64,000 nt of DNA from the sequence record PP430345; one strand, written 5' to 3'. Of this stretch, positions 9,733-44,765 are shown piece by piece. The notes beneath the pieces are model-generated. The model saw nothing but the letters and a program-made list of their open reading frames with translations. It was not told where the DNA came from and made no database searches. A program made the position numbers and the translations under genes. How positions within the stretch are numbered: the stretch's first letter is position 1; each line of letters starts with the position of its first letter. This DNA is from Escherichia phage vB_EcoM-LTH01.

Positions 9733-10040
9733 CTTATCCTACGGTCACACAAGTCTGACCATCTATCTCTGAGCAAGGGATTTCAAAATGTCTCCCGTCC
9801 CCAAATACATCTCGCCACATAGTCTATTCGGAAGCGGGAGTCTATGCACACCCCTTGCGGTAAGTGACCTCACTTTGAGATCAGCATCTTCCTTATTCGA
9901 CGAGTTAAATTCTCTTTAAGGTAGCCAGTGTTCGCAGCACTAACTATGAGGTATCCGTAAGATGATTTCAGTCATCTACCGAAAAATTACACCAAGCAAC
10001 TACCTTAAAGAGAACTTCTTAGTAAAGGCCCTTGCGAGCC

Positions 10041-10421
10041 TTAATCTTCACCTTCTGCCATTTTATACTCACGAATCTGAGTAGTTAATGGAATAGCATC
10101 TTTAAATGCATCAGAAGGGCCTTGATGAGTTTCTGAATTTGCAGAAGTAGTTCCTCCTGCCAGATCCTCTTCATTATCTTCCATTGTGTACAGATTGTTT
10201 GCCTTTTCAGCTTGCTCAAGAATATACTTCGCAGTAGTTTCTTTAACTTTCTCTGTACCGGAAGTCAGTAGACCTTCCAGAGTTTTAATTGCTTGAGGAG
10301 TAAGTCTTGCAAACTCGGAACGAGCATGAAGAATTGCTCTCTCAGTATTGATTGCAATGCTTTCCTCTGTAGTAGGCCGACCGCGTTTTCGAGTAACGAT
10401 TTCAGCTTTAGCCATAAACAC
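10041..10421 (-). CDS. hypothetical protein with AT-hook-like KRGRP motif
   Basis: 126-aa ORF inside the tRNA region; N-terminal RKRGRPTTEE. Confidence 0.4.
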   Translation of the reverse strand: MFMAKAEIVTRKRGRPTTEESIAINTERAILHARSEFARLTPQAIKTLEGLLTSGTEKVKETTAKYILEQAEKANNLYTMEDNEEDLAGGTTSANSETHQGPSDAFKDAIPLTTQIREYKMAEGED

Positions 10422-10607
10422 CTCAATTCAGTCGATATAACTATATTAGCAGTATAATAGGATTATGTCAAGAACTTATTGAAATGTATTAAGAAATGAA
10501 ATGGGGGTGCGCCGTTTCTGCTGTAATCTACGTCGTTATCGTTGAGGGAACTCGTAGTCAGGGAACATCAGTCCGACGACTTATCGGGAGCGACCCGACT
10601 TCTTATG

Positions 10608-10682
10608 TGGTGGCCCTGGGTGGAATCGAACCACCGTCTGGCGATTATGAGTCGCTTGCTTGAACCGTCCAGCTACAGGGCC
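10608..10682 (-). tRNA. tRNA-Met (anticodon CAT)
   Basis: Acceptor GGCCCTG/CAGGGCC, anticodon loop CTCATAA, T-arm GGTGG-TTCGATT-CCACC, CCA encoded. Confidence 0.75.
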
Positions 10683-10697
10683 TGTATTTAAAAGAAC

Positions 10698-10782
10698 TTA
10701 GCGCGGGAGGAAGGACTCGAACCTTCATACTCCAATTACTCGATTAACGACGGTTTAGAAGACCGTTGAGATACACCCGCGC
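10698..10782 (-). ncRNA. tRNA-like element (Arg-TCT-like anticodon arm) lacking a recognisable D-arm
   Basis: Closing 10-bp stem TTAGCGCGGG/CCCGCGCTAA, canonical anticodon arm ACGGT-CTTCTAA-ACCGT, T-arm GAAGG-TTCGAGT-CCTTC, ~24-nt insert before T-arm; no 3' CCA encoded. Confidence 0.3.
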
Positions 10783-12739: not shown

Positions 12740-12766
12740 AGACCCTCCTCTTAATCTTACCTTCGC

Positions 12767-12795
12767 TATCTTACATGACTATCCCAACATGTCAA
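12767..12795 (-). promoter_or_regulatory. putative leftward sigma70-like promoter
   Basis: Minus-strand TTGACA, 16-bp spacer, TAAGAT; about 30 nt upstream of the 12739 start. Confidence 0.3.
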
Positions 12796-12880
12796 ACCCT
12801 TTATGCCCGTTTAGGCATACAATACTATATTAGATTTCCCTGGCTCGAAGCCTCTCGCCAAACCCTTTATCATTATAATT

Positions 12881-12929
12881 TATTCATTTCATTCATAAAT
12901 TATATAATAATTATTCATTTCATTCATAA
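12881..12929. repeat. perfect 18-bp direct repeat TATTCATTTCATTCATAA x2 in AT-rich divergent region
   Basis: Copies at 12881-12898 and 12912-12929. Confidence 0.8.
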
Positions 12930-12954
12930 TTATTATTAAAAACAATAAAAACAA

Positions 12955-13013
12955 GATCTTTTATAAGATCTTTTTATATATATGATCTATAGATCTACAG
13001 ATCTTAAAGGATC
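12955..13013. promoter_or_regulatory. cluster of six GATC sites with AGATCTTTTATA-like repeats
   Basis: GATC at 12955, 12967, 12984, 12992, 13000, 13010 within 59 bp. Confidence 0.7.
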
Positions 13014-13052
13014 TTTTATAGATTTTATACTAAATTTTTTAAATTTAAAGTC

Positions 13053-13081
13053 TTGACATGGAGTTTTTACATAGGTATAGT
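13053..13081 (+). promoter_or_regulatory. sigma70-like promoter for rightward operon
   Basis: TTGACA, 17-bp spacer, TATAGT. Confidence 0.5.
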
Positions 13082-13116
13082 GACTCTACTTTAACAAACA
13101 ACAGGTTATCTTTATA

Positions 13117-15894: not shown

Positions 15895-15903
15895 GGAGAA
15901 GTG

Positions 15904-17271
15904 ATGAGCGTAACTAAGATTATCGAACAACTGGCAGCAACCGGATCAACAAAAGAAAAAGAAGCGATCTTACGTAGTCATGCGGATAACGATGGCCTGC
16001 GTGAAGTATTTCGGGTAGCATATAGCAAAGAGTTAAACTTCTTTGTTCGCAGTTTTAAGGTTGATCCTGCAACTTTCCACCAAGGAAGCCGTAATCTGCA
16101 AGAGAGTATTGATCTTATCGTCAACGATGTTGCAAGCCGTATGTACACTGGGCATGAAGCTCGTGATGTTCTCACGAATGCCGTTCAACTGTGTGAAGAA
16201 CCCGAAACCCTGATAAAGATCATCAACCGCGATCTTGAGTGTGGTATCCAGACAACTCTGACCAACAAGGTTTGGAAGGACCTGATTACAGAGCCTCCTT
16301 ACCAGAGCTATACTCTTTTCAAAGAGGATCTCCTTCGTAATTTCAACTATGAGGGTGCTTTCTCCGACGAGAAGATGGACGGACTTTATGCAGACATTAT
16401 GGTTTGGCCTGAGCAGGTCATTTATCGTTCACGATCAGGGAAAGAGCTTAATTTCCGGTGTATTACTTCACTTGAGCAAAACCTGAAAGAAAAAGCCAAT
16501 TCTGATGGTCCTTTTGTTATGCACGGGGAAGGTTTAGTTATTGACCTGTCATACCCGCACGGGGTTCAACCACGAGAGATCGGTAACGGATATCTTAACC
16601 AAGATCCTGAAAACATTGATCCTAATCTGGTACGTTTGGTTGTTTGGGATGTTGTTTCTATGGACGAGTATATCGCACGTAAATCCAAGAAAAAATATAA
16701 AGACCGTCGTAAGCAGGTTGAAAATATTGTCAACTATGTTGATGAGTCTTCTCATTTCCAGATGATCCGTGGTCGTCAGATAGGCAGTCTTAAAGAGGCT
16801 ATTGACCACTTTATCGAAATGCGTTTGCAGAAGAAAGAGGGTACGGTTCTTAAAGAAGCGAATATGCCTTGGGGAGATAACAAGACTAAGAAAGGGATCA
16901 AACTTAAAAATGAGTTCGATGTTGATCTTGAGGTTGTGGCGACAACGCCTCACAAGAAGAAGCCTGGGCTTATTGGATCTCTGGTCTGCCGGACTCGTGA
17001 TGGACTTCTTGAAGTTGGTGCTGGGTCTGGACTTACTGATGCGCTTCGTAAAAAGCCGAGTGAGTATTTCATTGGGCAGATTATTACGATCAAGGCTAAT
17101 GACATTACTGATGCGGAGAATAAAGATCTGAAATCGCTGTTTTTGCCACGTTTAAATTATAAGTTTGTTGAACTTCGCTTTGATAAGAGCGTAGCCAACA
17201 GCCTGGAAGAAGTGATCGAAGCATCGAACTCTCTTCTGGATCTTCTTCGTAAAATTGCAGAGGAGGTTTAA
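15904..17271 (+). CDS. ATP-dependent DNA ligase
   Basis: Adenylation motif KMDG (DEKMDGLYADIMV); 455 aa; AGGAG RBS. Confidence 0.6.
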   Translation: MSVTKIIEQLAATGSTKEKEAILRSHADNDGLREVFRVAYSKELNFFVRSFKVDPATFHQGSRNLQESIDLIVNDVASRMYTGHEARDVLTNAVQLCEEPETLIKIINRDLECGIQTTLTNKVWKDLITEPPYQSYTLFKEDLLRNFNYEGAFSDEKMDGLYADIMVWPEQVIYRSRSGKELNFRCITSLEQNLKEKANSDGPFVMHGEGLVIDLSYPHGVQPREIGNGYLNQDPENIDPNLVRLVVWDVVSMDEYIARKSKKKYKDRRKQVENIVNYVDESSHFQMIRGRQIGSLKEAIDHFIEMRLQKKEGTVLKEANMPWGDNKTKKGIKLKNEFDVDLEVVATTPHKKKPGLIGSLVCRTRDGLLEVGAGSGLTDALRKKPSEYFIGQIITIKANDITDAENKDLKSLFLPRLNYKFVELRFDKSVANSLEEVIEASNSLLDLLRKIAEEV

Positions 17272-17273
17272 TA

Positions 17274-17735
17274 GTGGAAGCTTTAATTATCGCTGTTGTG
17301 GGGATTACACTTTACCTTTCCGTAATTTTGGGCGTTCCCGTGTTGCTTACTCGTAAGCCAGCAGGTAAGATCTTGAAGTTGATTCGTGAAGGATCTTCTC
17401 GGTTTGAGGTACATTCTGGAGTTTTTGTTCCTGAGGGCCATGAAGATCCTTGTGAGGATAATGATGATCTTTGGTATGTTGATTATACAATTGTTGATAC
17501 GGTCACAGGTAAGGTTACTTACATTGAAAAGGTTTGTGGTATTATCTCCGATAGCCTTTTCGTAAATGGCGATCTGTTCTGGATGAATGATTATGAAGGT
17601 ACACGACTTTACCACACCTGTCGTCGAATCGTTAAGCGACGTAATAAGGCTTCAAAAAAGGACAAACGATCTAAGTTCGAGATCGAAAAGGATGAAGCAC
17701 GTAAAGTTGCACTAGAAACTTATAAAGACTGTTGA
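17274..17735 (+). CDS. hypothetical membrane-anchored protein
   Basis: 153 aa; N-terminal hydrophobic helix; GTG start after GAGGAGG. Confidence 0.4.
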   Translation: MEALIIAVVGITLYLSVILGVPVLLTRKPAGKILKLIREGSSRFEVHSGVFVPEGHEDPCEDNDDLWYVDYTIVDTVTGKVTYIEKVCGIISDSLFVNGDLFWMNDYEGTRLYHTCRRIVKRRNKASKKDKRSKFEIEKDEARKVALETYKDC

Positions 17736-17788
17736 CAATGATAAGGGGCCATTATACATGACCCCAAGTTAAACGAAAGGAGATTAAA

Positions 17789-18526
17789 TTGAAATACAAT
17801 GAATTGAGTACTGATCAAAAAACCTTTATTTCCGAGATGATTGATGTTAAGGGCAATAGCTTCTTTCGGGAAGCAGCAGAGCGAGTAAAAAATTGGAATT
17901 TTGTTGCTCGTGGTTTTCATGACTTCTCTGAAGATGTTTCAAAATTCCAAAAAACTCTTGTTATGGAAGAGTACAATGAACTTTATGATCTTGGTTTAAC
18001 TAAAAAGAATCGTAAGGAAATCATAGATGCACTTTGCGACTTGTTTGTAGTTGGATCATATTACAACTTCTTGAAAGGTGGTTCTGAAAACATCTGTCCT
18101 GCTGACAATGTTGGTACGTATAATCTGACTTCGCTTTATCGAACTCTTGATCAATTTATCGAGAGTGACAATACAAACGGGATCGTTATGGCGGTTGTTG
18201 CAATCATGCAGAACTCCAACTTTAATGCTCATCGTGCTTTAAATGAGGTTTTGGATTCAAATGATTCCAAGATCCCAACCGTGAAAGAATTTACAGAAGG
18301 TTTCTACAAGACGTATTACTTTTTTGCAGAAGCTGATTTTGATCTTGATGCCATGATGCGTTTGGAAGCAGAACAGATTGAACTGCGTAACCGTAACCGT
18401 TATCATGGTGTGAAGGGAAGTATCGTAAAAGGTGGTGATGGTATGGATCGAGTAGTATTTAAAGATAAGAACGGCAAGATCATGAAGCCGATCACTTATT
18501 TTGAAGCAAACCTAGAGGGAATGTAA
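17789..18526 (+). CDS. hypothetical protein (weak MazG-like all-alpha NTP pyrophosphatase resemblance)
   Basis: 245 aa; MEEYNELYD...IIDALCDLFVV resembles EExxE...D motif; TTG start. Confidence 0.3.
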   Translation: MKYNELSTDQKTFISEMIDVKGNSFFREAAERVKNWNFVARGFHDFSEDVSKFQKTLVMEEYNELYDLGLTKKNRKEIIDALCDLFVVGSYYNFLKGGSENICPADNVGTYNLTSLYRTLDQFIESDNTNGIVMAVVAIMQNSNFNAHRALNEVLDSNDSKIPTVKEFTEGFYKTYYFFAEADFDLDAMMRLEAEQIELRNRNRYHGVKGSIVKGGDGMDRVVFKDKNGKIMKPITYFEANLEGM

Positions 18527-18529
18527 TTA

Positions 18530-18706
18530 ATGCCGTTGTATTCTTACAAATGTGAAAAATGTGGTGAAGTTTTCGATCAAAATAGAAAGATCGCAGAACG
18601 TGAAAATGCTCCTTGCAAGTGTGGAGAGATTGCAGTAAAATGTTTGTCTGCTCCACGAGGAATTAAAAACGGTTATTGTGACCAGGGTAAAATGTTTGTA
18701 CGATAG
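18530..18706 (+). CDS. zinc-ribbon protein (FmdB-like CxxC...CxxC)
   Basis: 58-aa ORF missing from the ORF track: MPLYSYKCEKCGEVF...PCKCGE. Confidence 0.45.
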   Translation: MPLYSYKCEKCGEVFDQNRKIAERENAPCKCGEIAVKCLSAPRGIKNGYCDQGKMFVR

Positions 18707-18714
18707 GGGGAATT

Positions 18715-19059
18715 ATGAATCAAGAAAAAGATGTTGAAAAACCTGGCTTACCTGTGTATGATGGTTCTCAGACTAAAATTTCTTTTGATGGTTTAGTTAT
18801 TACGGGTCTTGCAAGTGGTAAAAAATATGCTCGTCGTCCAAACGGTTATCATGAGATCTATGTCAGTGCATTAAGTCCTTTTGTCCGTCAGTTCCAAATT
18901 GGACTAAAAGGTAATTTAACCTTGAAGATCCATACGGGTTATGAAACATTTGCAACGTGTACTTTACCTTGTGAAACTGTAGCTCTGCTTGTGTCAGAGA
19001 TCAGTGATGAAATCCCAGTCTTTCAGGTTGTTTTTAAAGAACTTAAAAATCCTGCTTGA
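18715..19059 (+). CDS. hypothetical protein
   Basis: 114-aa ORF. Confidence 0.45.
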   Translation: MNQEKDVEKPGLPVYDGSQTKISFDGLVITGLASGKKYARRPNGYHEIYVSALSPFVRQFQIGLKGNLTLKIHTGYETFATCTLPCETVALLVSEISDEIPVFQVVFKELKNPA

Positions 19060-40740: not shown

Positions 40741-41211
40741 ATGGATAAGGGTATGTACGCAACAGTTGATCATCGTAAACTGATGGAATTGAAAAATTGT
40801 GGGGCTATTGTTCCTGATCGTATTGAAGAAATCGCAACAGCCCTGTTCGAAGAGTTAATATTTGGAATTAAGACTTTGCGTAAAAACAACGATGAGTATC
40901 GTGGATGGTTTTCTCGCTTATTCTTAGGCTCTCTTAGTATCGATCAGGAAGTTGATATTATGTTCTCTACTCGAAAAGAGTTGATAGAGCATTTATCAGC
41001 CATTGAGGTCCCAAGTAAGTTATGTCCAATCACGGAAGAACTTAAAGAGCAGATTATCTTTTTAGATCGTGCGGCACTTTACACTGCCGAAGCAGCAAAG
41101 ATTCTTGATATGTTCAAACGTCATCATGAAGTAATTGTTGACTCTGATCATTCTGTCGTAGTAGACTGGGTTCTGCAAAACGCTACCCGCATCCGTACTT
41201 TAATTAGCTAA
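40741..41211 (+). CDS. hypothetical protein
   Basis: 156-aa ORF. Confidence 0.45.
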   Translation: MDKGMYATVDHRKLMELKNCGAIVPDRIEEIATALFEELIFGIKTLRKNNDEYRGWFSRLFLGSLSIDQEVDIMFSTRKELIEHLSAIEVPSKLCPITEELKEQIIFLDRAALYTAEAAKILDMFKRHHEVIVDSDHSVVVDWVLQNATRIRTLIS

Positions 41212-41223
41212 GGGGGAATTAAT

Positions 41224-42069
41224 ATGGAAGAAATCGTAATGAATGGTCCGGCAAAAAACATTTGGGTGTCTCCAGTAACTTCTAACGATTGGCGTATTTA
41301 TGTTACGGATCTGCACAATTCACCTGAAGCACATATCGAGGCTGTTGACCTGATTCGTTCAGCACCAGAAGGTGATATTGTAAATCTGTACATTACTTCT
41401 TGCGGTGGTTATTGTGATATCGCAGATATGTACATGACAGCGATCTCTGAAGCTAAGGCGACTGTTGTGACACACGGCATTGGTGAAGTGGCAAGTGCTG
41501 CAACAATGATCTTCTTATCTGGTCATGTTCGAATTTGTCGTCCAGGTTCTCATTACATGTTTCACAACGTCCAGATGAGTATGGGTGGTGACTCGGCGCT
41601 GGTATTTAAACGTAGCGATTTCTACAAAGACCTGTTCAAAGAGAAATACTACGATCTGTACAAGGGTGTTATGACAGAAGATGAACTCGTTGAACTGTTT
41701 GATCGTGCTGGCGAAATTTACTTCACTTCCTCTCAGATGCAAGCCCGTTTGACCGCTGAAGATGAAGCAATTAAAAAGCAAATGGAAGCCGATCAACAAA
41801 ATACAGGGGGGATTAAGGTTGAAGGGTCAATCGAATCGAGTGATGTTGATGATGCGAAGGAAATCGGAGAGGGAGAATTTGAAATCGTCCTCGACGAAGG
41901 CTACGCCAAAAAATTCAACATCTTTACTCTTAACCCGCGAGACTTTGACGAGTACAACCTCGACGAACTAGACGAGATTGCGGAATGTTTCGGTGTTGAA
42001 CAGTACGTTTATTATCGTGACGAGTTAATTGAACAGATCATCACTGCGGCGAAAGAAGGGGGCAAATAA
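41224..42069 (+). CDS. ClpP-like serine peptidase (S14 family)
   Basis: GEVASAATMIFLSG and MFHNV matching ClpP Ser/His regions; acidic C-terminal extension. Confidence 0.6.
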   Translation: MEEIVMNGPAKNIWVSPVTSNDWRIYVTDLHNSPEAHIEAVDLIRSAPEGDIVNLYITSCGGYCDIADMYMTAISEAKATVVTHGIGEVASAATMIFLSGHVRICRPGSHYMFHNVQMSMGGDSALVFKRSDFYKDLFKEKYYDLYKGVMTEDELVELFDRAGEIYFTSSQMQARLTAEDEAIKKQMEADQQNTGGIKVEGSIESSDVDDAKEIGEGEFEIVLDEGYAKKFNIFTLNPRDFDEYNLDELDEIAECFGVEQYVYYRDELIEQIITAAKEGGK

Positions 42070-42071
42070 GA

Positions 42072-42581
42072 GTGGCAGCATTGAAACCTAAAGCAGAGCG
42101 CCGTGAAAATGATCGCTATGAAACTCCGAAATGGGCAGTAGATGCTTTCTTGAATTTAGTTCCAATCCGTCAGGATTGGACTTATCTGGAACCTTGCAGA
42201 GCCTCTGGAAGTTTTTATAATGAAATGCCAATTGGTTCAGCCTGGGGAGAGATTCAAGAAGGTGTTGATTATCTTGCAACTAAATACAATAAGGTAGATT
42301 GTGTGTTAACTAATCCACCTTACAATTTAGCTCAAGAGTTTGTAGAAAAAGCGCACAAGGATGCTGATGTAGTGATCATGCTTCTTCGTTTAGGTTTCCT
42401 TGAGAGTACCAAACGTGTTGAGTTCTGGAAGCAATACCCTGTTGATCACTTAGTTACTTTATCTAAGCGACCTTCTTTTACTGACGATGGTAAAACAGAT
42501 GGTGCAGCATATGGTTATTTTATTTGGGATAAAAAAGGTAAACTTGGTTTAACAAAACCTTTTTACTGGATTCACCCTTAA
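42072..42581 (+). CDS. small putative N6-adenine DNA methyltransferase
   Basis: EPCRASGSF (motif I-like) then LTNPPY (motif IV); only 169 aa. Confidence 0.4.
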   Translation: MAALKPKAERRENDRYETPKWAVDAFLNLVPIRQDWTYLEPCRASGSFYNEMPIGSAWGEIQEGVDYLATKYNKVDCVLTNPPYNLAQEFVEKAHKDADVVIMLLRLGFLESTKRVEFWKQYPVDHLVTLSKRPSFTDDGKTDGAAYGYFIWDKKGKLGLTKPFYWIHP

Positions 42582-42587
42582 ATTTAA

Positions 42588-42613
42588 AGGTCACCTTTGG
42601 GTGGCCTTTTTTA
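42588..42613 (+). terminator. rho-independent terminator
   Basis: GGTCACCTTTGGGTGGCC hairpin then T6. Confidence 0.65.
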
Positions 42614-42641
42614 TTGACTTGAATTCATGGATGTGTATAAT
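42614..42641 (+). promoter_or_regulatory. sigma70-like promoter
   Basis: TTGACT, 16-bp spacer, TATAAT. Confidence 0.55.
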
Positions 42642-42666
42642 GATAGTCATCAACTAGGAGAACATA

Positions 42667-42996
42667 ATGAAATATTACATTTACTTTCGAAGAGTGTTTG
42701 GTATCAAGACAAAGAAATTAGAAGGCTACGAGATGAAGGTCACCCTTGAAACTCTCAACAACCTTGAAGATTACGATGTTATTCCTGTTGCACCAAAGTC
42801 AGAAGATGAGTATAATCGTTTTGAAAGGATGCTTAAGTTAGTTGAGTGTCCGATCGATAATATTTCTTTTGTTAAGCAAGACCCGCTTGAAATCATCAAC
42901 TATCTTCGTGGTCAAAAGCAAGACATTAAGAGAAATACAAACTGGAAAGAAGAAATAAAAGATTGGTCTTTAAACTTAAGAGGGGAAAGAGTATGA
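42667..42996 (+). CDS. hypothetical protein
   Basis: 109-aa ORF with AGGAG RBS. Confidence 0.45.
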   Translation: MKYYIYFRRVFGIKTKKLEGYEMKVTLETLNNLEDYDVIPVAPKSEDEYNRFERMLKLVECPIDNISFVKQDPLEIINYLRGQKQDIKRNTNWKEEIKDWSLNLRGERV

Positions 42997-43157
42997 CTAG
43001 AAATGGTAGTTCAGCATACGAGAAGGGCCGAGCAGCCGGATTCAAGTTTGGGATGTTCAAGAGAAACAACCCGTATGATCCAAACACCATGCCGGAGCAA
43101 TTTCAAGATTGGGAATCAGGATTTACAAAAGGGTATCAAGAAAAGGGGTGGTTATGA
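42993..43157 (+). CDS. ribosome modulation factor (RMF)-like small protein
   Basis: 54 aa from ATG 42993; GRAAGF...NPY...QDWESGF parallels E. coli RMF RGYQAG...CPY...QWLGGW (recalled). Confidence 0.35.
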   Translation: MTRNGSSAYEKGRAAGFKFGMFKRNNPYDPNTMPEQFQDWESGFTKGYQEKGWL

Positions 43158-43198
43158 GTGGATATGTGGGGATGGAAATAATAGGAGAAGAGAGAGTA

Positions 43199-44449
43199 AT
43201 GAAAGTTTACTTGGTAGGTGGCGCAGTTCGTGATGAACTGATGAGTGTTGAAAGTAAGGATCGGGACTATGTAGTCGTCGGCGCGACCCATGAAGAAATG
43301 ATTGAAAAGGGATTTACTAAGGTTGGTGCAGCTTTCCCTGTGTACCTTGAACCAAACACAAAAGAAGAGTACGCTCTTGCTCGAACGGAAAGATCAACAG
43401 GTCCTGGTTATCACGACTTCGAGGTTGTGTTCTCTCCCGACGTTACAATTGAACAAGACCTGATGCGAAGAGATTTGACCATTAATGCTATTGCCAAGGA
43501 TCTTTCTACGGGTGAAATTATTGACCCTTGCGGTGGTGTACTCGATATTGAACTTCGTCGGTTACGTTGTGTATCCACTAAAGCATTTATCGAAGACCCT
43601 TTACGTGTATACCGATTAGCCAGATTACATGCCAGATACGGCGGCGAGTTTACAATTGATCCTGAGACTTGGGGAATGTGCAAGGATGTTGATTTAAGTG
43701 CATTGCCAAAAGAGCGTAAATTTGCAGAGATTAAGAAATGCTTTAGTGATCAGTCAGAAATGAATAAACCTTCGGTAATGATCCGTATGTTGACTCAACT
43801 GGGAGAATTTCCTGAGCTTGTGGATTTATACGATGTTGTTCAACCCAAGGAGCACCACCCTGAAGGTGATGCATTTGTTCACACTTTACTTTGCATGGAT
43901 TATGCCCAAGCGACTCGTGCAAGTGAAGCTGTGAAGTGGGCAGTTCTGTGTCACGACTTAGGGAAATGCATTTATTGGTTAACAGGTAAATTGCACGGGC
44001 ATGAAGAACATGGTATCAAGTTGACTGAACAAGTTTGCGATCGCTTTGGTGTTCCTAACAATTGGAAGAAGTTAGCTTTAGCTGTAACTGAGCACCATAC
44101 ACGACTTCACCGTATCAAAGAGATGAAGCCAAAGAAAGTTTACGACTTGTTGGTAGCCTTACGTGGTGAAAAGGACCAGGCATTCCTTTCTGAGTTTATT
44201 GACGCTTGCATCTGTGATGCTCGTGGTCGTGGCCCTGAAAAAATGTTTGACAACTACACCCAGCCTTTGGTATTATTCTCAGCACTGGCGGGGATTGTTC
44301 AAAACAGCGTTGCAATCTCAAAAGAAAGTAAAGAGATTTCTGAAAGATTTGCTGGACGTCCAGAAGAGATCAAGAATAGAATCCGAAATGTAAAAGTAAG
44401 GTACGTTACACAATACATCGATAAGATGAAGGAGAGTGAAAATGGTTGA
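43199..44449 (+). CDS. cca: tRNA nucleotidyltransferase (CCA-adding enzyme) with HD domain
   Basis: MKVYLVGGAVRD head motif, HD-domain histidines (CHDLGK); start at ATG 43199 after AGGAGAAG. Confidence 0.8.
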   Translation: MKVYLVGGAVRDELMSVESKDRDYVVVGATHEEMIEKGFTKVGAAFPVYLEPNTKEEYALARTERSTGPGYHDFEVVFSPDVTIEQDLMRRDLTINAIAKDLSTGEIIDPCGGVLDIELRRLRCVSTKAFIEDPLRVYRLARLHARYGGEFTIDPETWGMCKDVDLSALPKERKFAEIKKCFSDQSEMNKPSVMIRMLTQLGEFPELVDLYDVVQPKEHHPEGDAFVHTLLCMDYAQATRASEAVKWAVLCHDLGKCIYWLTGKLHGHEEHGIKLTEQVCDRFGVPNNWKKLALAVTEHHTRLHRIKEMKPKKVYDLLVALRGEKDQAFLSEFIDACICDARGRGPEKMFDNYTQPLVLFSALAGIVQNSVAISKESKEISERFAGRPEEIKNRIRNVKVRYVTQYIDKMKESENG

Positions 44450-44765
44450 AGGTTATTTGATCGGTTGTCTTATTAGTTGCCCACTTTGGTTCTTACTGAT
44501 CAAATTACGGCAGAAGGGTTTTAACATTCCGTTCCCCAAGGATAGTGAAGACCTGTATATCCTAGAACCCCTGAACAATGAAAATGTAAATTTACGTATG
44601 GTCATGGTTGGTTGGCTATGTGCAACATTCTTCTGGTATCTTGTTTACCCAATTATTATCTGTGTTGCAATTGGGTCGTACTTGGTGTTCGGTATAAAAA
44701 GTTTATGTGGCCTTACTATAGGGAATGATAAATTACTAACTAAGATCTTTGGGGTTAAAAAATGA
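44436..44765 (+). CDS. small multi-pass membrane protein (paralogue A)
   Basis: 109 aa; WFLLIKLRQKGFNIPFP; paralogous to next gene. Confidence 0.5.
   Translation: MKMVEGYLIGCLISCPLWFLLIKLRQKGFNIPFPKDSEDLYILEPLNNENVNLRMVMVGWLCATFFWYLVYPIIICVAIGSYLVFGIKSLCGLTIGNDKLLTKIFGVKK

What the first reader, a model, noticed from the sequence alone, without database searches (positions are those of the whole stretch)
42072..42581. Minimal NPPY methyltransferase, possibly linked to the GATC cluster
A 169-aa ORF has an AdoMet-binding-like EPCRASGSF followed by LTNPPY, the catalytic tetrapeptide of N6-adenine methyltransferases, but is too short to include a typical target-recognition domain. It may be a stand-alone protective methylase against restriction, or act on the GATC-rich region.
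Basis: partly seen in the sequence, partly recalled or inferred. Interest (0 to 1): 0.45.

Follow-up and report, generated by a model that had tools for sequence, protein, structure and literature searches.

The report
Small phage GATC adenine DNA methyltransferase
This 169-residue phage gene is a real but already annotated single-domain DNA adenine methyltransferase, and its close relative in phage Bas51 was shown in 2025 to methylate GATC sites on phage DNA and to set off retron defences, so the finding is correct but ordinary.

Summary
Window 42072-42581 (+) is a 169-aa ORF with a GTG start. It carries EPCRASGSF (motif I, residues 40-48) and LTNPPY (motif IV, residues 79-84).

The window comes from a Septuagintavirus-like rV5-type myovirus. 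The ORF is 510/510 nt identical to gene A54_151 of phage A5-4, annotated 'DNA N-6-adenine methyltransferase'. It matches PHROG 799 at E = 3e-63.

It is 61% identical over its full length to bas51_0176 of phage Bas51. Among Bas51's three adenine-methyltransferase genes, only that one has D69, D79 and T83. Those are the positions whose mutation abolished retron triggering in PMC12548924; T83P also removed GATC m6A from phage DNA. All three residues are conserved here (D66, D76, T80).

AlphaFold2 (pLDDT 90.9) gives a bare Rossmann core with γ-class motif order and no target-recognition domain. The family is large (about 9,000 clusters), nearly always 155-220 aa, and orphan.

The best explanation is a stand-alone GATC-specific m6A methyltransferase acting on replicating phage DNA. 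GATC specificity is inferred by orthology and was not measured for this protein. An anti-restriction role is unproven.

A conserved intergenic array of six GATCT motifs (12955-13017) would be a substrate. Bas51 has the enzyme but no such array.

Novelty: already known. Interest: low.

The parts
42072..42581 (+). Coding sequence of the 169-aa single-domain N6-adenine DNA methyltransferase (GTG start, TAA stop)
   Evidence: ORF list and sequence. Identical to A5-4 A54_151. PHROG 799 at E = 3e-63. 61% identical to Bas51 bas51_0176.
42056..42062 (+). Shine-Dalgarno-like AAGGGGG, 9 nt upstream of the GTG start
   Evidence: Read from the sequence. The same start is annotated in A5-4, and the MAALKPK N-terminus is conserved in homologs.
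42111..42128 (+). Residues D14-P19 (DRYETP), the motif X-like 'TP' element. T18 is invariant; D14, Y16 and P19 are at least 90% conserved.
   Evidence: Alignment. Aligns with the vETP segment of M.TaqI at residues 21-24.
42189..42215 (+). Residues E40-F48 (EPCRASGSF), motif I, the AdoMet-binding loop
   Evidence: E40, P41 and C42 are at least 90% conserved. Aligns with LEPACAHGPF of M.TaqI.
42249..42272 (+). Residues E60-Y67: E60 (motif II-like acidic residue) and D66-Y67 (motif III-like). D66 corresponds to Bas51 D69.
   Evidence: Conservation at or above 90%. Aligned with the 'vEId' and 'DFL' segments of M.TaqI. D69G in Bas51 abolishes retron triggering. Residue mapping.
42297..42323 (+). 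Residues D76-Y84 (DCVLTNPPY), motif IV, the catalytic loop. D76 corresponds to Bas51 D79 and T80 to Bas51 T83.
   Evidence: N81, P82 and P83 are invariant. Bas51 D79G and T83P abolish retron triggering, and T83P removes GATC m6A.
42462..42500 (+). Residues S131-D143 (SKRPSFTDDGKTD), a strongly conserved loop between the last two core strands. It is the candidate DNA-recognition and adenine-stacking element that would replace a target-recognition domain (inferred).
   Evidence: R133, P134, S135 and G140 are invariant; S131, K132, F136, T142 and D143 are at least 90% conserved. The model shows coil between strands 126-130 and 147-152.
42586..42609 (+). Intrinsic-terminator-like hairpin (10-bp stem, then a T-run) 5 nt after the stop codon. 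The methyltransferase is the last gene of its transcription unit.
   Evidence: Terminator scan.
42614..42641 (+). Sigma-70-like promoter TTGACT-16-TATAAT that starts the next unit (small ORF plus CCA-adding enzyme)
   Evidence: Promoter scan, 11/12 matches.
41224..42069 (+). Upstream ClpP-like protease gene (281 aa), a syntenic neighbour of the methyltransferase in Septuagintavirus, Certrevirus and Vequintavirus
   Evidence: Pfam CLP_protease at E = 3.9e-8. Same gene order in A5-4, Bas51 and HeinrichReichert. Both features lie under the match in Certrevirus records.
12955..13017 (.). Intergenic array of six GATCT motifs (4 x AGATCT) about 35 bp upstream of an early sigma-70-like promoter. A probable substrate of the enzyme, but not shown to be functionally coupled to it.
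   Evidence: six GATC in 66 bp of 21% GC DNA, scan-corrected Poisson p about 0.0035. Positionally conserved in Certrevirus. Absent in Bas51.

Best explanation
The ORF encodes a stand-alone (orphan), single-domain, S-adenosylmethionine-dependent DNA N6-adenine methyltransferase with γ-class motif order. It most likely methylates the adenine of GATC on replicating phage DNA.

Shown here:
- It is a conserved protein-coding gene.
- It has motif X-like TP, motif I (E40-P41-C42...G46), the acidic residues E60 and D66, and motif IV (D76...T80-N81-P82-P83-Y84), in the same order as in M.TaqI.
- It folds as a bare Rossmann core with no separate target-recognition domain.
- It is the last gene of an operon with sigma-70-type signals that also carries nucleotide-metabolism genes (nrdD/nrdG, PhoH, ClpP-like protease).

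Shown for the 61%-identical ortholog in phage Bas51 (PMC12548924):
- The enzyme is required for m6A at GATC on packaged phage DNA, even in E. coli MG1655 (dam+, from my own knowledge; the paper text seen here does not state it).
- It is toxic when over-expressed.
- Expressed alone it triggers Retron-Squ1. Mutations at the residues equivalent to D66, D76 and T80 abolish triggering of Retron-Asa1 and Retron-Squ1.

Inferred:
- AdoMet is held by motif I, E60 and D66/Y67.
- The target adenine is flipped into the NPPY pocket.
- Sequence recognition comes from conserved core loops (D14-x-Y-x-T-P and S131-K-R-P-S-F...G-x-T-D143) rather than from a target-recognition domain or partner subunit.
- The biological pay-off is rapid full methylation of phage GATC sites that host Dam cannot keep up with. 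That would give protection from m6A-sensitive GATC endonucleases and/or escape from MutH nicking and SeqA binding at unmethylated or hemimethylated GATC.
- The cost is being a trigger for retrons that sense methylation of their msDNA.
For: - ORF and motifs.
- Identical to the annotated A5-4 gene.
- PHROG 799 at E = 3.1e-63.
- 544 phage records carry a homolog.
- 61% identity, E = 8e-78, full length to bas51_0176.
- Only bas51_0176, not bas51_0070 or bas51_0200, has D69/D79/T83, and the neighbouring glycosidase has R87, matching the paper's alleles.
- Experimental GATC and retron data: PMC12548924.
- Family conservation of the catalytic and loop residues.
- AlphaFold2 single domain, pLDDT 90.9.
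- Profile alignment to M.TaqI residues 21-112.
- Family members are nearly all 155-220 aa. Distant members are orphan genes in phage replication modules with no nuclease or specificity gene nearby.
- Conserved synteny with the ClpP-like protease.
- Terminator and promoter framing.
- GATC is not avoided in this window (385 observed vs 363 expected) or in Bas51 (703 vs 713).
Against: - Specificity was not measured for this protein. At 61% identity a changed or relaxed motif is possible.
- No curated Pfam or NCBIfam model reaches its threshold, and no close solved structure exists.
- Fold comparison alone scores rRNA adenine methyltransferases (ErmC', METTL5, Dim1/KsgA) as high as DNA enzymes.
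- An anti-restriction benefit is not supported by data. Relatives are reported to be exceptionally sensitive to restriction-modification systems.
- It is unexplained why host Dam, which makes the same GATC mark, does not itself trigger the retrons that the Bas51 enzyme triggers.
Confidence: 0.72

Rival explanations
1. It is a DNA N6-adenine methyltransferase, but with a different or relaxed specificity from GATC. The target could be a shorter or degenerate motif, single-stranded DNA, or near non-specific methylation as in Hia5/Hin1523, because it has no target-recognition domain.
For: - No target-recognition domain in the model.
- 39% sequence divergence from the characterised ortholog.
- Precedent for phage or prophage adenine methyltransferases with almost no specificity (PMC3299994).
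- The Bas51 enzyme is toxic on over-expression in E. coli, and it triggers retrons although host Dam does not. Both hint at a substrate range wider than that of host Dam.
Against: - Wild-type Bas51 DNA gives a distinct GATC logo, which is lost in T83P.
- The putative recognition loops (SKRPSF...G.TD and D.Y.TP) are invariant or at least 90% conserved across the family, including this protein and Bas51. That argues for a shared target.
- Hia5/Hin1523 are 281-aa DPPY enzymes aligned with Dam and DpnII, a different architecture.
- Relatives are highly sensitive to restriction-modification systems, which is not expected for non-specific adenine methylation.
Confidence: 0.17
2. It is an RNA (rRNA or tRNA) N6-adenine methyltransferase, or a HemK-like protein glutamine methyltransferase, rather than a DNA enzyme. 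One possibility is that it acts with the neighbouring CCA-adding enzyme and the phage tRNAs.
For: - A CCA tRNA nucleotidyltransferase gene lies 0.5 kb downstream.
- tRNA genes are present in the window.
Against: - Genetics and methylome data for the ortholog show a DNA GATC activity.
- No RNA-binding C-terminal domain is present.
- A terminator and a new promoter separate the gene from the CCA-enzyme unit.
- The DxYxTP and EPxxxxG motifs align with M.TaqI.
Confidence: 0.04
3. It is only a catalytic subunit and needs a separate phage- or host-encoded specificity partner, in the way Type I HsdM needs HsdS, to recognise DNA.
For: - The closest solved folds by Foldseek are Type I HsdM subunits and PacII M1M2S, which depend on a specificity subunit.
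- There is no target-recognition domain.
Against: - The Bas51 ortholog expressed alone from a plasmid was toxic in E. coli and triggered Retron-Squ1 in Serratia quinivorans with no other phage gene present.
- No HsdS-like or other conserved partner gene flanks family members in unrelated phages.
- The immediate neighbours differ between clades, apart from the ClpP-like protease.
Confidence: 0.04

Closest known systems
Escherichia phage A5-4 gene A54_151 (UZZ64391.1, 'DNA N-6-adenine methyltransferase'), described for Septuagintavirus in PMC11370258
   Same: 510/510 nt identical, with the same start and stop and the same neighbours. [quoted passage not shown]
   Different: Nothing in the gene itself. 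The surrounding genome is only about 94-96% identical and is mosaic. The annotation is computational only.
Bas51 (Escherichia phage WalterGehring) bas51_0176 N6-adenine methyltransferase, the GATC m6A enzyme and trigger of Retron-Asa1 and Retron-Squ1 (PMC12548924)
   Same: - 61% identity over the full length.
- Same size class (177 vs 169 aa).
- Same motifs, and conserved D69/D79/T83 (D66/D76/T80 here).
- Same position directly downstream of a ClpP-like protease.
   Different: - 39% divergence, and the activity of the present protein is untested.
- Bas51 also has two further adenine methyltransferases and a C5 methyltransferase. None of them has a homolog in this 64-kb window.
- Bas51 lacks an intergenic GATCT array.
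γ-class N6-adenine DNA methyltransferases (M.TaqI, Type I HsdM, CamA, M.BseCI, MmeI methyltransferase domain)
   Same: - Motif order X-I-II-III-IV with NPPY.
- Profile alignment to M.TaqI residues 21-112.
   Different: Those enzymes are 380-1,500 aa and recognise DNA through a C-terminal target-recognition domain or an HsdS subunit. This protein ends about 85 residues after NPPY and has neither. No Pfam model of these families reaches its threshold.
Classical Dam enzymes (E. coli Dam, T4 Dam; α-class, DPPY)
   Same: Same probable product (G-m6A-TC) and the same orphan life-style. Phage-encoded Dam enzymes are a long-known kind (my own knowledge).
   Different: A different family. Classical Dam enzymes have DPPY, a target-recognition domain inserted between the AdoMet and catalytic halves, and about 260-280 aa (my own knowledge). 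No similarity was detected here.
Pfam PF05869 'Dam' / TIGR01712 phage N-6-adenine-methyltransferase (small phage methyltransferases, profile length about 165-169)
   Same: Similar small size and a weak local match around motif IV.
   Different: Scores are far below the curated cut-offs: 14.0 vs 28.1 bits for PF05869 and 13.4 vs 97 bits for TIGR01712. It is therefore not a member by those models.
Hia5 / Hin1523 / Nme1821 non-specific adenine methyltransferases of Mu-like prophages (PMC3299994)
   Same: Phage-borne orphan m6A methyltransferases.
   Different: They are 281 aa with DPPY and FxGxG, are aligned with Dam and M1.DpnII, and have a divergent target-recognition region. They are essentially non-specific, and DNA they methylate resists many restriction enzymes. 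The ortholog of the present enzyme gives a discrete GATC motif.

Membership tests
PHROG 799 (phage 'DNA methyltransferase' family) | Significant match to the family HMM over most of the protein | tested here: met
   E = 3.1e-63, 215.5 bits, residues 1-168.
Ortholog group of Bas51 bas51_0176 (GATC m6A methyltransferase of rV5-like phages) | Full-length sequence similarity and the same architecture | tested here: met
   61% identity, E = 8e-78, residues 2-169 vs 3-171.
Ortholog group of Bas51 bas51_0176 (GATC m6A methyltransferase of rV5-like phages) | Conservation of the residues whose mutation abolishes function (D69, D79, T83) | tested here: met
   D66, D76 and T80 are present here and at least 90% conserved in the family. 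Only bas51_0176 among Bas51's methyltransferases has these residues.
Ortholog group of Bas51 bas51_0176 (GATC m6A methyltransferase of rV5-like phages) | Conserved genomic position | tested here: met
   Directly downstream of the ClpP-like protease in the window, A5-4, HeinrichReichert and Bas51.
Ortholog group of Bas51 bas51_0176 (GATC m6A methyltransferase of rV5-like phages) | Methylates the adenine of GATC in DNA | not testable with these tools
   Needs methylome sequencing or DpnI/MboI assays. Shown only for the Bas51 enzyme.
γ-class N6-adenine DNA methyltransferases (M.TaqI-like) | Linear motif order X, I, II, III, IV with an (N/D)PP(Y/F) motif IV | tested here: met
   The profile aligns co-linearly with M.TaqI residues 21-112, including TP, EPxxxxG, E, D(F/Y) and NPPY.
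γ-class N6-adenine DNA methyltransferases (M.TaqI-like) | Class I Rossmann methyltransferase fold | tested here: met
γ-class N6-adenine DNA methyltransferases (M.TaqI-like) | C-terminal target-recognition domain (or a partner specificity subunit) | tested here: not met
   The protein ends 85 residues after NPPY and the model is a single domain. No partner gene is conserved nearby. The ortholog is active alone.
Pfam PF05869 Dam / NCBIfam TIGR01712 phage N6A methyltransferase | Score at or above the curated cut-off | tested here: not met
   14.0 vs 28.1 bits for PF05869, and 13.4 vs 97.05 bits for TIGR01712.
rRNA adenine methyltransferases (Erm / KsgA / Dim1) | Family HMM match and a C-terminal RNA-binding domain | tested here: not met
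Restriction-modification system methyltransferase | A cognate restriction endonuclease gene adjacent | tested here: not met
   The neighbours are a ClpP-like protease, small ORFs and the CCA-adding enzyme. Distant members sit in replication modules without a nuclease partner.

The most novel reading that the evidence does not exclude
The family may be the smallest architecture for a sequence-specific DNA methyltransferase. It is about 170 aa, has no target-recognition domain, has no Pfam model that reaches its cut-off and no solved structure, and spans about 9,000 clusters. On this reading it reads GATC entirely through loops of the catalytic core, and it may also act on single-stranded or hemimethylated DNA that host Dam handles poorly. 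That would explain why it triggers msDNA-sensing retrons while host Dam does not.

In the Septuagintavirus/Certrevirus clade it may also be functionally paired with the conserved GATCT array next to the early promoter (12955-13017). Together they could form a phage-autonomous epigenetic timer or origin control.
Probability: 0.15. Interest if true: 0.5.

Novelty: already known. Interest (0 to 1): 0.15.

Why it matters
For genome annotation, the result only confirms an existing label and adds a probable specificity (GATC) by orthology to a 2025 experiment.

Practically, the gene predicts two things. Virion DNA of this phage should be Dam-type methylated regardless of the host. The phage should also be sensitive to retrons that sense GATC methylation of their msDNA. 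Both points are relevant to phage therapy and host-range work.

The open scientific question is structural: how a 169-residue enzyme without a target-recognition domain reads a 4-bp site. That is a question about the whole family, not about this locus.

Tried and rejected
1. Membership in Pfam Dam (PF05869), Eco57I, EcoRI_methylase, N6_Mtase or TIGR01712. All are weak local hits around NPPY, far below the cut-offs.

2. A sequence-level relative with a solved structure. None was found. The single-sequence search gave only a chance DHFR hit. The profile search gave marginal DpnA, ErmAM and M.TaqI hits.

3. The idea, from memory, that Hin1523/HP1-type 'target-recognition-domain-less about 170-aa Dam' enzymes are the same kind. 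Reading PMC3299994 showed that Hia5 and its relatives Hin1523 and Nme1821 are aligned with Dam/DpnII-type enzymes (Hia5 is 281 aa) and are non-specific. Rejected.

4. The possibility that the enzyme in the retron paper was one of Bas51's other two 'N6 adenine methyltransferase' genes. Rejected by residue check: only bas51_0176 has D69/D79/T83.

5. An obligatory pairing of the enzyme with an intergenic GATC cluster. Rejected, because Bas51 has the enzyme and no such cluster.

6. GATC avoidance or enrichment as a signature. There is none beyond trinucleotide expectation, either window-wide (385 vs 363) or in Bas51 (703 vs 713).

7. Fusion partners that might reveal a recognition module. The few longer family members (448-560 aa) carry no recognisable extra Pfam domain.

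9. Literature searches for further characterised family members or Vequintavirus methylomes found nothing beyond PMC12548924.

Full report
**Observation**

It spans window 42072-42581 on the + strand, has a GTG start, encodes 169 aa and ends in TAA.
- A Shine-Dalgarno-like AAGGGGG lies 9 nt upstream.
- The start codon follows the stop of the upstream gene by two bases.
- EPCRASGSF is at residues 40-48 and LTNPPY at residues 79-84.
- A 10-bp-stem terminator-like hairpin (42586-42609) follows the stop codon.
- A TTGACT-16-TATAAT promoter-like site (42614-42641) opens the next unit.

The gene is therefore the last cistron of its transcription unit.

**Source of the window**

Megablast of 41000-44500 finds five Escherichia phages at 93-96% identity: A73, W70, A7_1, A5-4 and UPEC06. 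These are the Septuagintavirus clade of rV5-like Vequintavirinae (PMC11370258).

The ORF is 510/510 nt identical to A5-4 gene A54_151, annotated 'DNA N-6-adenine methyltransferase'. The 99.4% identity reported by tblastn reflects only the GTG start. [quoted passage not shown]

**Family**

- PHROG 799 ('DNA methyltransferase') matches at E = 3.1e-63 over residues 1-168.
- No Pfam or NCBIfam model reaches its curated cut-off. The best are local hits around NPPY: PF05869 Dam at 14 vs 28.1 bits, and TIGR01712 at 13.4 vs 97 bits.
- tblastn finds the protein in 544 phage records. These include Vequintavirus (about 61% identity), Certrevirus (75-79%), Seunavirus-like phages (65-68%), phi92-like and Phapecoctavirus phages (about 43%), and many Vibrio, Aeromonas, Campylobacter, Listeria and cyanophage genomes at 25-37%.
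- An exhaustive profile search of 1.84 billion representatives gives 779 clusters at E <= 1e-30 and 9,022 at E <= 1e-10. Nearly all are 155-220 aa.
- In a 62-sequence alignment, T18, N81, P82, P83, F90, L104, R115, R133, P134, S135, G140 and Y147 are invariant. D14, Y16, P19, E40, P41, C42, E60, D66, D76, T80, S131, K132, F136, T142, D143 and W152 are at least 90% conserved.

**Structure**

AlphaFold2 with that alignment gives a confident model (mean pLDDT 90.9, pTM 0.86). It is a single alpha/beta domain with nothing appended.
- Foldseek against the PDB ranks Type I HsdM subunits, PacII, CamA and M.BseCI first, interleaved with Dim1/KsgA/ErmC'.
- The family profile aligns co-linearly with M.TaqI residues 21-112. 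The TP element, EPxxxxG (motif I), an acidic residue (E60 here), D-F/Y (D66-Y67 here) and D-x4-NPPY (D76...Y84) all match.

This is the γ-class motif order, but the C-terminal target-recognition domain that defines complete γ-class enzymes is absent. Fold alone cannot separate DNA from rRNA adenine methyltransferases.

**Decisive external evidence**

PMC12548924 (PLoS Biol 2025) selected escape mutants of phage Bas51 on Retron-Asa1 and Retron-Squ1.
- All escapers had mutations in 'the Bas51 N6 adenine methyltransferase'.
- Re-engineered D69G, D79G and T83P alleles abolished defence.
- Native nanopore sequencing showed a GATC m6A motif on wild-type phage DNA, and it was almost completely lost in T83P.
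- The enzyme was toxic when expressed alone in E. coli.
- Expressed alone, it triggered Retron-Squ1 in Serratia quinivorans.

Bas51 is phage WalterGehring, MZ501111.1. Its record carries three genes with that product name: bas51_0070 (441 aa), bas51_0176 (177 aa) and bas51_0200 (272 aa). It also carries a Dcm-like gene.
- Translation shows that only bas51_0176 has D69, D79 and T83.
- The nearby 'glycosidase' bas51_0171 has R87, matching the paper's R87* allele.

The window protein is 61% identical to bas51_0176 over its full length (E = 8e-78). D66, D76 and T80 sit at the equivalent positions. Both genes lie immediately downstream of a ClpP-like protease gene. Orthology to an experimentally characterised GATC methyltransferase is therefore well supported. 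The specificity of this particular protein remains an inference.

**Mechanism**

- Shown: a conserved single-domain AdoMet-type fold with N6-adenine catalytic motifs; orphan status; and a position at the end of an operon with sigma-70-type signals that also carries nrdD/nrdG and PhoH.
- Shown for the ortholog: GATC m6A on phage DNA that host methylation does not supply; activity without other phage genes; and retron triggering.
- Inferred: motif I, E60 and D66/Y67 bind AdoMet. The flipped adenine enters the NPPY pocket. The invariant loop S131-K-R-P-S-F...G-x-T-D143, between the last two core strands, together with the N-terminal D-x-Y-x-T-P element, replaces a target-recognition domain in reading the site. 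The very high conservation of these loops across the family argues for a shared target.
- The likely benefits are protection from m6A-sensitive GATC endonucleases and avoidance of MutH or SeqA action on under-methylated replicating DNA. These come from general knowledge of Dam biology and are untested.
- The BASEL study found Vequintavirinae and relatives exceptionally sensitive to restriction-modification systems (PMC8594841). The enzyme is therefore not a broad anti-restriction device.

**Rivals**

- A different or relaxed specificity is the main alternative (about 0.17). The protein has no target-recognition domain, and the ortholog is toxic and triggers retrons that host Dam does not.
- The precedent for non-specific phage adenine methyltransferases (Hia5/Hin1523) belongs to a different, 281-aa Dam/DpnII-like architecture.
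- An RNA or protein substrate is unlikely, given the ortholog's DNA phenotype and the terminator and promoter that separate the gene from the CCA-enzyme unit.
- A requirement for a specificity partner is unlikely. The ortholog works alone, and no partner gene is conserved next to distant members, which sit in phage replication modules.

**The 'GATC cluster'**

GATC is not depleted in the window: 385 observed against 363 expected from trinucleotide content. Two local enrichments exist.
- The coding stretch 15901-19000 has 40 GATC against a local expectation of 25.5.
- A 66-bp, 21% GC intergenic segment at 12955-13020 holds six GATCT motifs, four of them AGATCT. Its scan-corrected Poisson p is about 0.0035. 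It lies in the divergent region 12740-13116, about 35 bp upstream of a TTGACA-17-TATAGT promoter-like site.

The corresponding region of Certrevirus phages (CR3, phiTE, F1M1E, POP15; about 70% identity) keeps two to three GATC motifs (mostly GATCT) upstream and has two further GATC inside the promoter spacer. Those phages also carry the methyltransferase at 75-79% identity.

Bas51 has the enzyme but no comparable intergenic cluster. The array would be a substrate of a GATC methyltransferase and may be regulatory or origin-related. A functional coupling is only a hypothesis, and the enzyme does not depend on such an array.

**Verdict**

However, the gene is already annotated in an identical copy, and a close ortholog has a published function. 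Novelty: already known. Interest: low (0.15).

The residual open question is how a methyltransferase with no target-recognition domain reads GATC, and whether its substrate range exceeds that of host Dam. That question belongs to the family as a whole.

Noticed in passing
window 12955-13017 (within the divergent intergenic region 12740-13116): Six GATCT motifs (4 x AGATCT) lie in 63 bp of 21% GC DNA, about 35 bp upstream of a TTGACA-17-TATAGT promoter-like site at 13053. GATCTnTTTAT resembles the E. coli oriC 13-mer repeats (my own knowledge). The array is a possible Dam-type regulatory or origin element. It is positionally conserved in Certrevirus and absent in Bas51.
   Followed up: partly
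window 12880-12941: Two tandem copies of a 31-nt AT-rich repeat (TTATTCATTTCATTCATAA...) lie immediately upstream of the GATCT array. A related 'CATTCATAATAATTATTAAAAA' segment is present at the same place in Certrevirus loci.
   Followed up: no
L006 (Cronobacter phage CR3) about 755-790; the same in L007, L008 and L009: In Certrevirus the equivalent early promoter-like site reads TTGACAagagGATCattgGATCatagaat. Two GATC sites sit inside the spacer between the -35 and -10 hexamers, an arrangement seen in Dam-sensitive promoters (my own knowledge). The window's own promoter has no GATC in its spacer.
   Followed up: no
window 15901-19000: This coding stretch is enriched in GATC: 40 observed against 25.5 expected from local trinucleotide content and 10.9 from base composition. 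The motifs spread over codon phases 0 and 2, across three ORFs.
   Followed up: partly
window 9235-10780, minus strand: A tRNA cluster is present. ARAGORN finds Gln, Gly, Pro, Tyr and Met. Rfam adds a sixth, weak tRNA at 10702-10780 (35.8 bits) but does not report the Tyr gene at its gathering score.
   Followed up: no
window 43109-44449: The CCA-adding enzyme ORF (PolyA_pol head plus HD domain) is listed mechanically from a TTG at 43109. The A5-4 annotation is 30 codons shorter, and the canonical MKVYLVGGAVRD N-terminus begins at the internal ATG near 43199. The true start is probably that ATG.
   Followed up: no
window 41224-42069: The gene upstream of the methyltransferase matches Clp protease only over residues 51-122 of 281 (E = 3.9e-8). 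It has a long acidic C-terminal extension. It is labelled 'hypothetical' in A5-4 but 'ClpP-like protease' in BASEL phages, and it is always adjacent to the methyltransferase.
   Followed up: partly
L018:14456-15781, L017:4069-4887 and L018:17042-17806 (phage Bas51): Bas51 encodes two more adenine methyltransferases (441 aa with DPPF near the N-terminus and SFGGSGTT near the C-terminus; 272 aa with GNPPF) and a Dcm-like enzyme. None has a homolog in this 64-kb window by tblastn. The retron paper also quantified a GTAC m6A motif, presumably made by one of the two adenine methyltransferases.
   Followed up: partly
Literature (PMC12548924), relevant to window 42072-42581: Unexplained: host E. coli Dam makes the same GATC mark yet does not trigger Retron-Asa1 or Retron-Squ1, whereas the phage mini-methyltransferase does. 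The phage enzyme is also toxic when over-expressed. This hints that its substrate range (for example single-stranded msDNA) or its activity level differs from that of host Dam.
   Followed up: no
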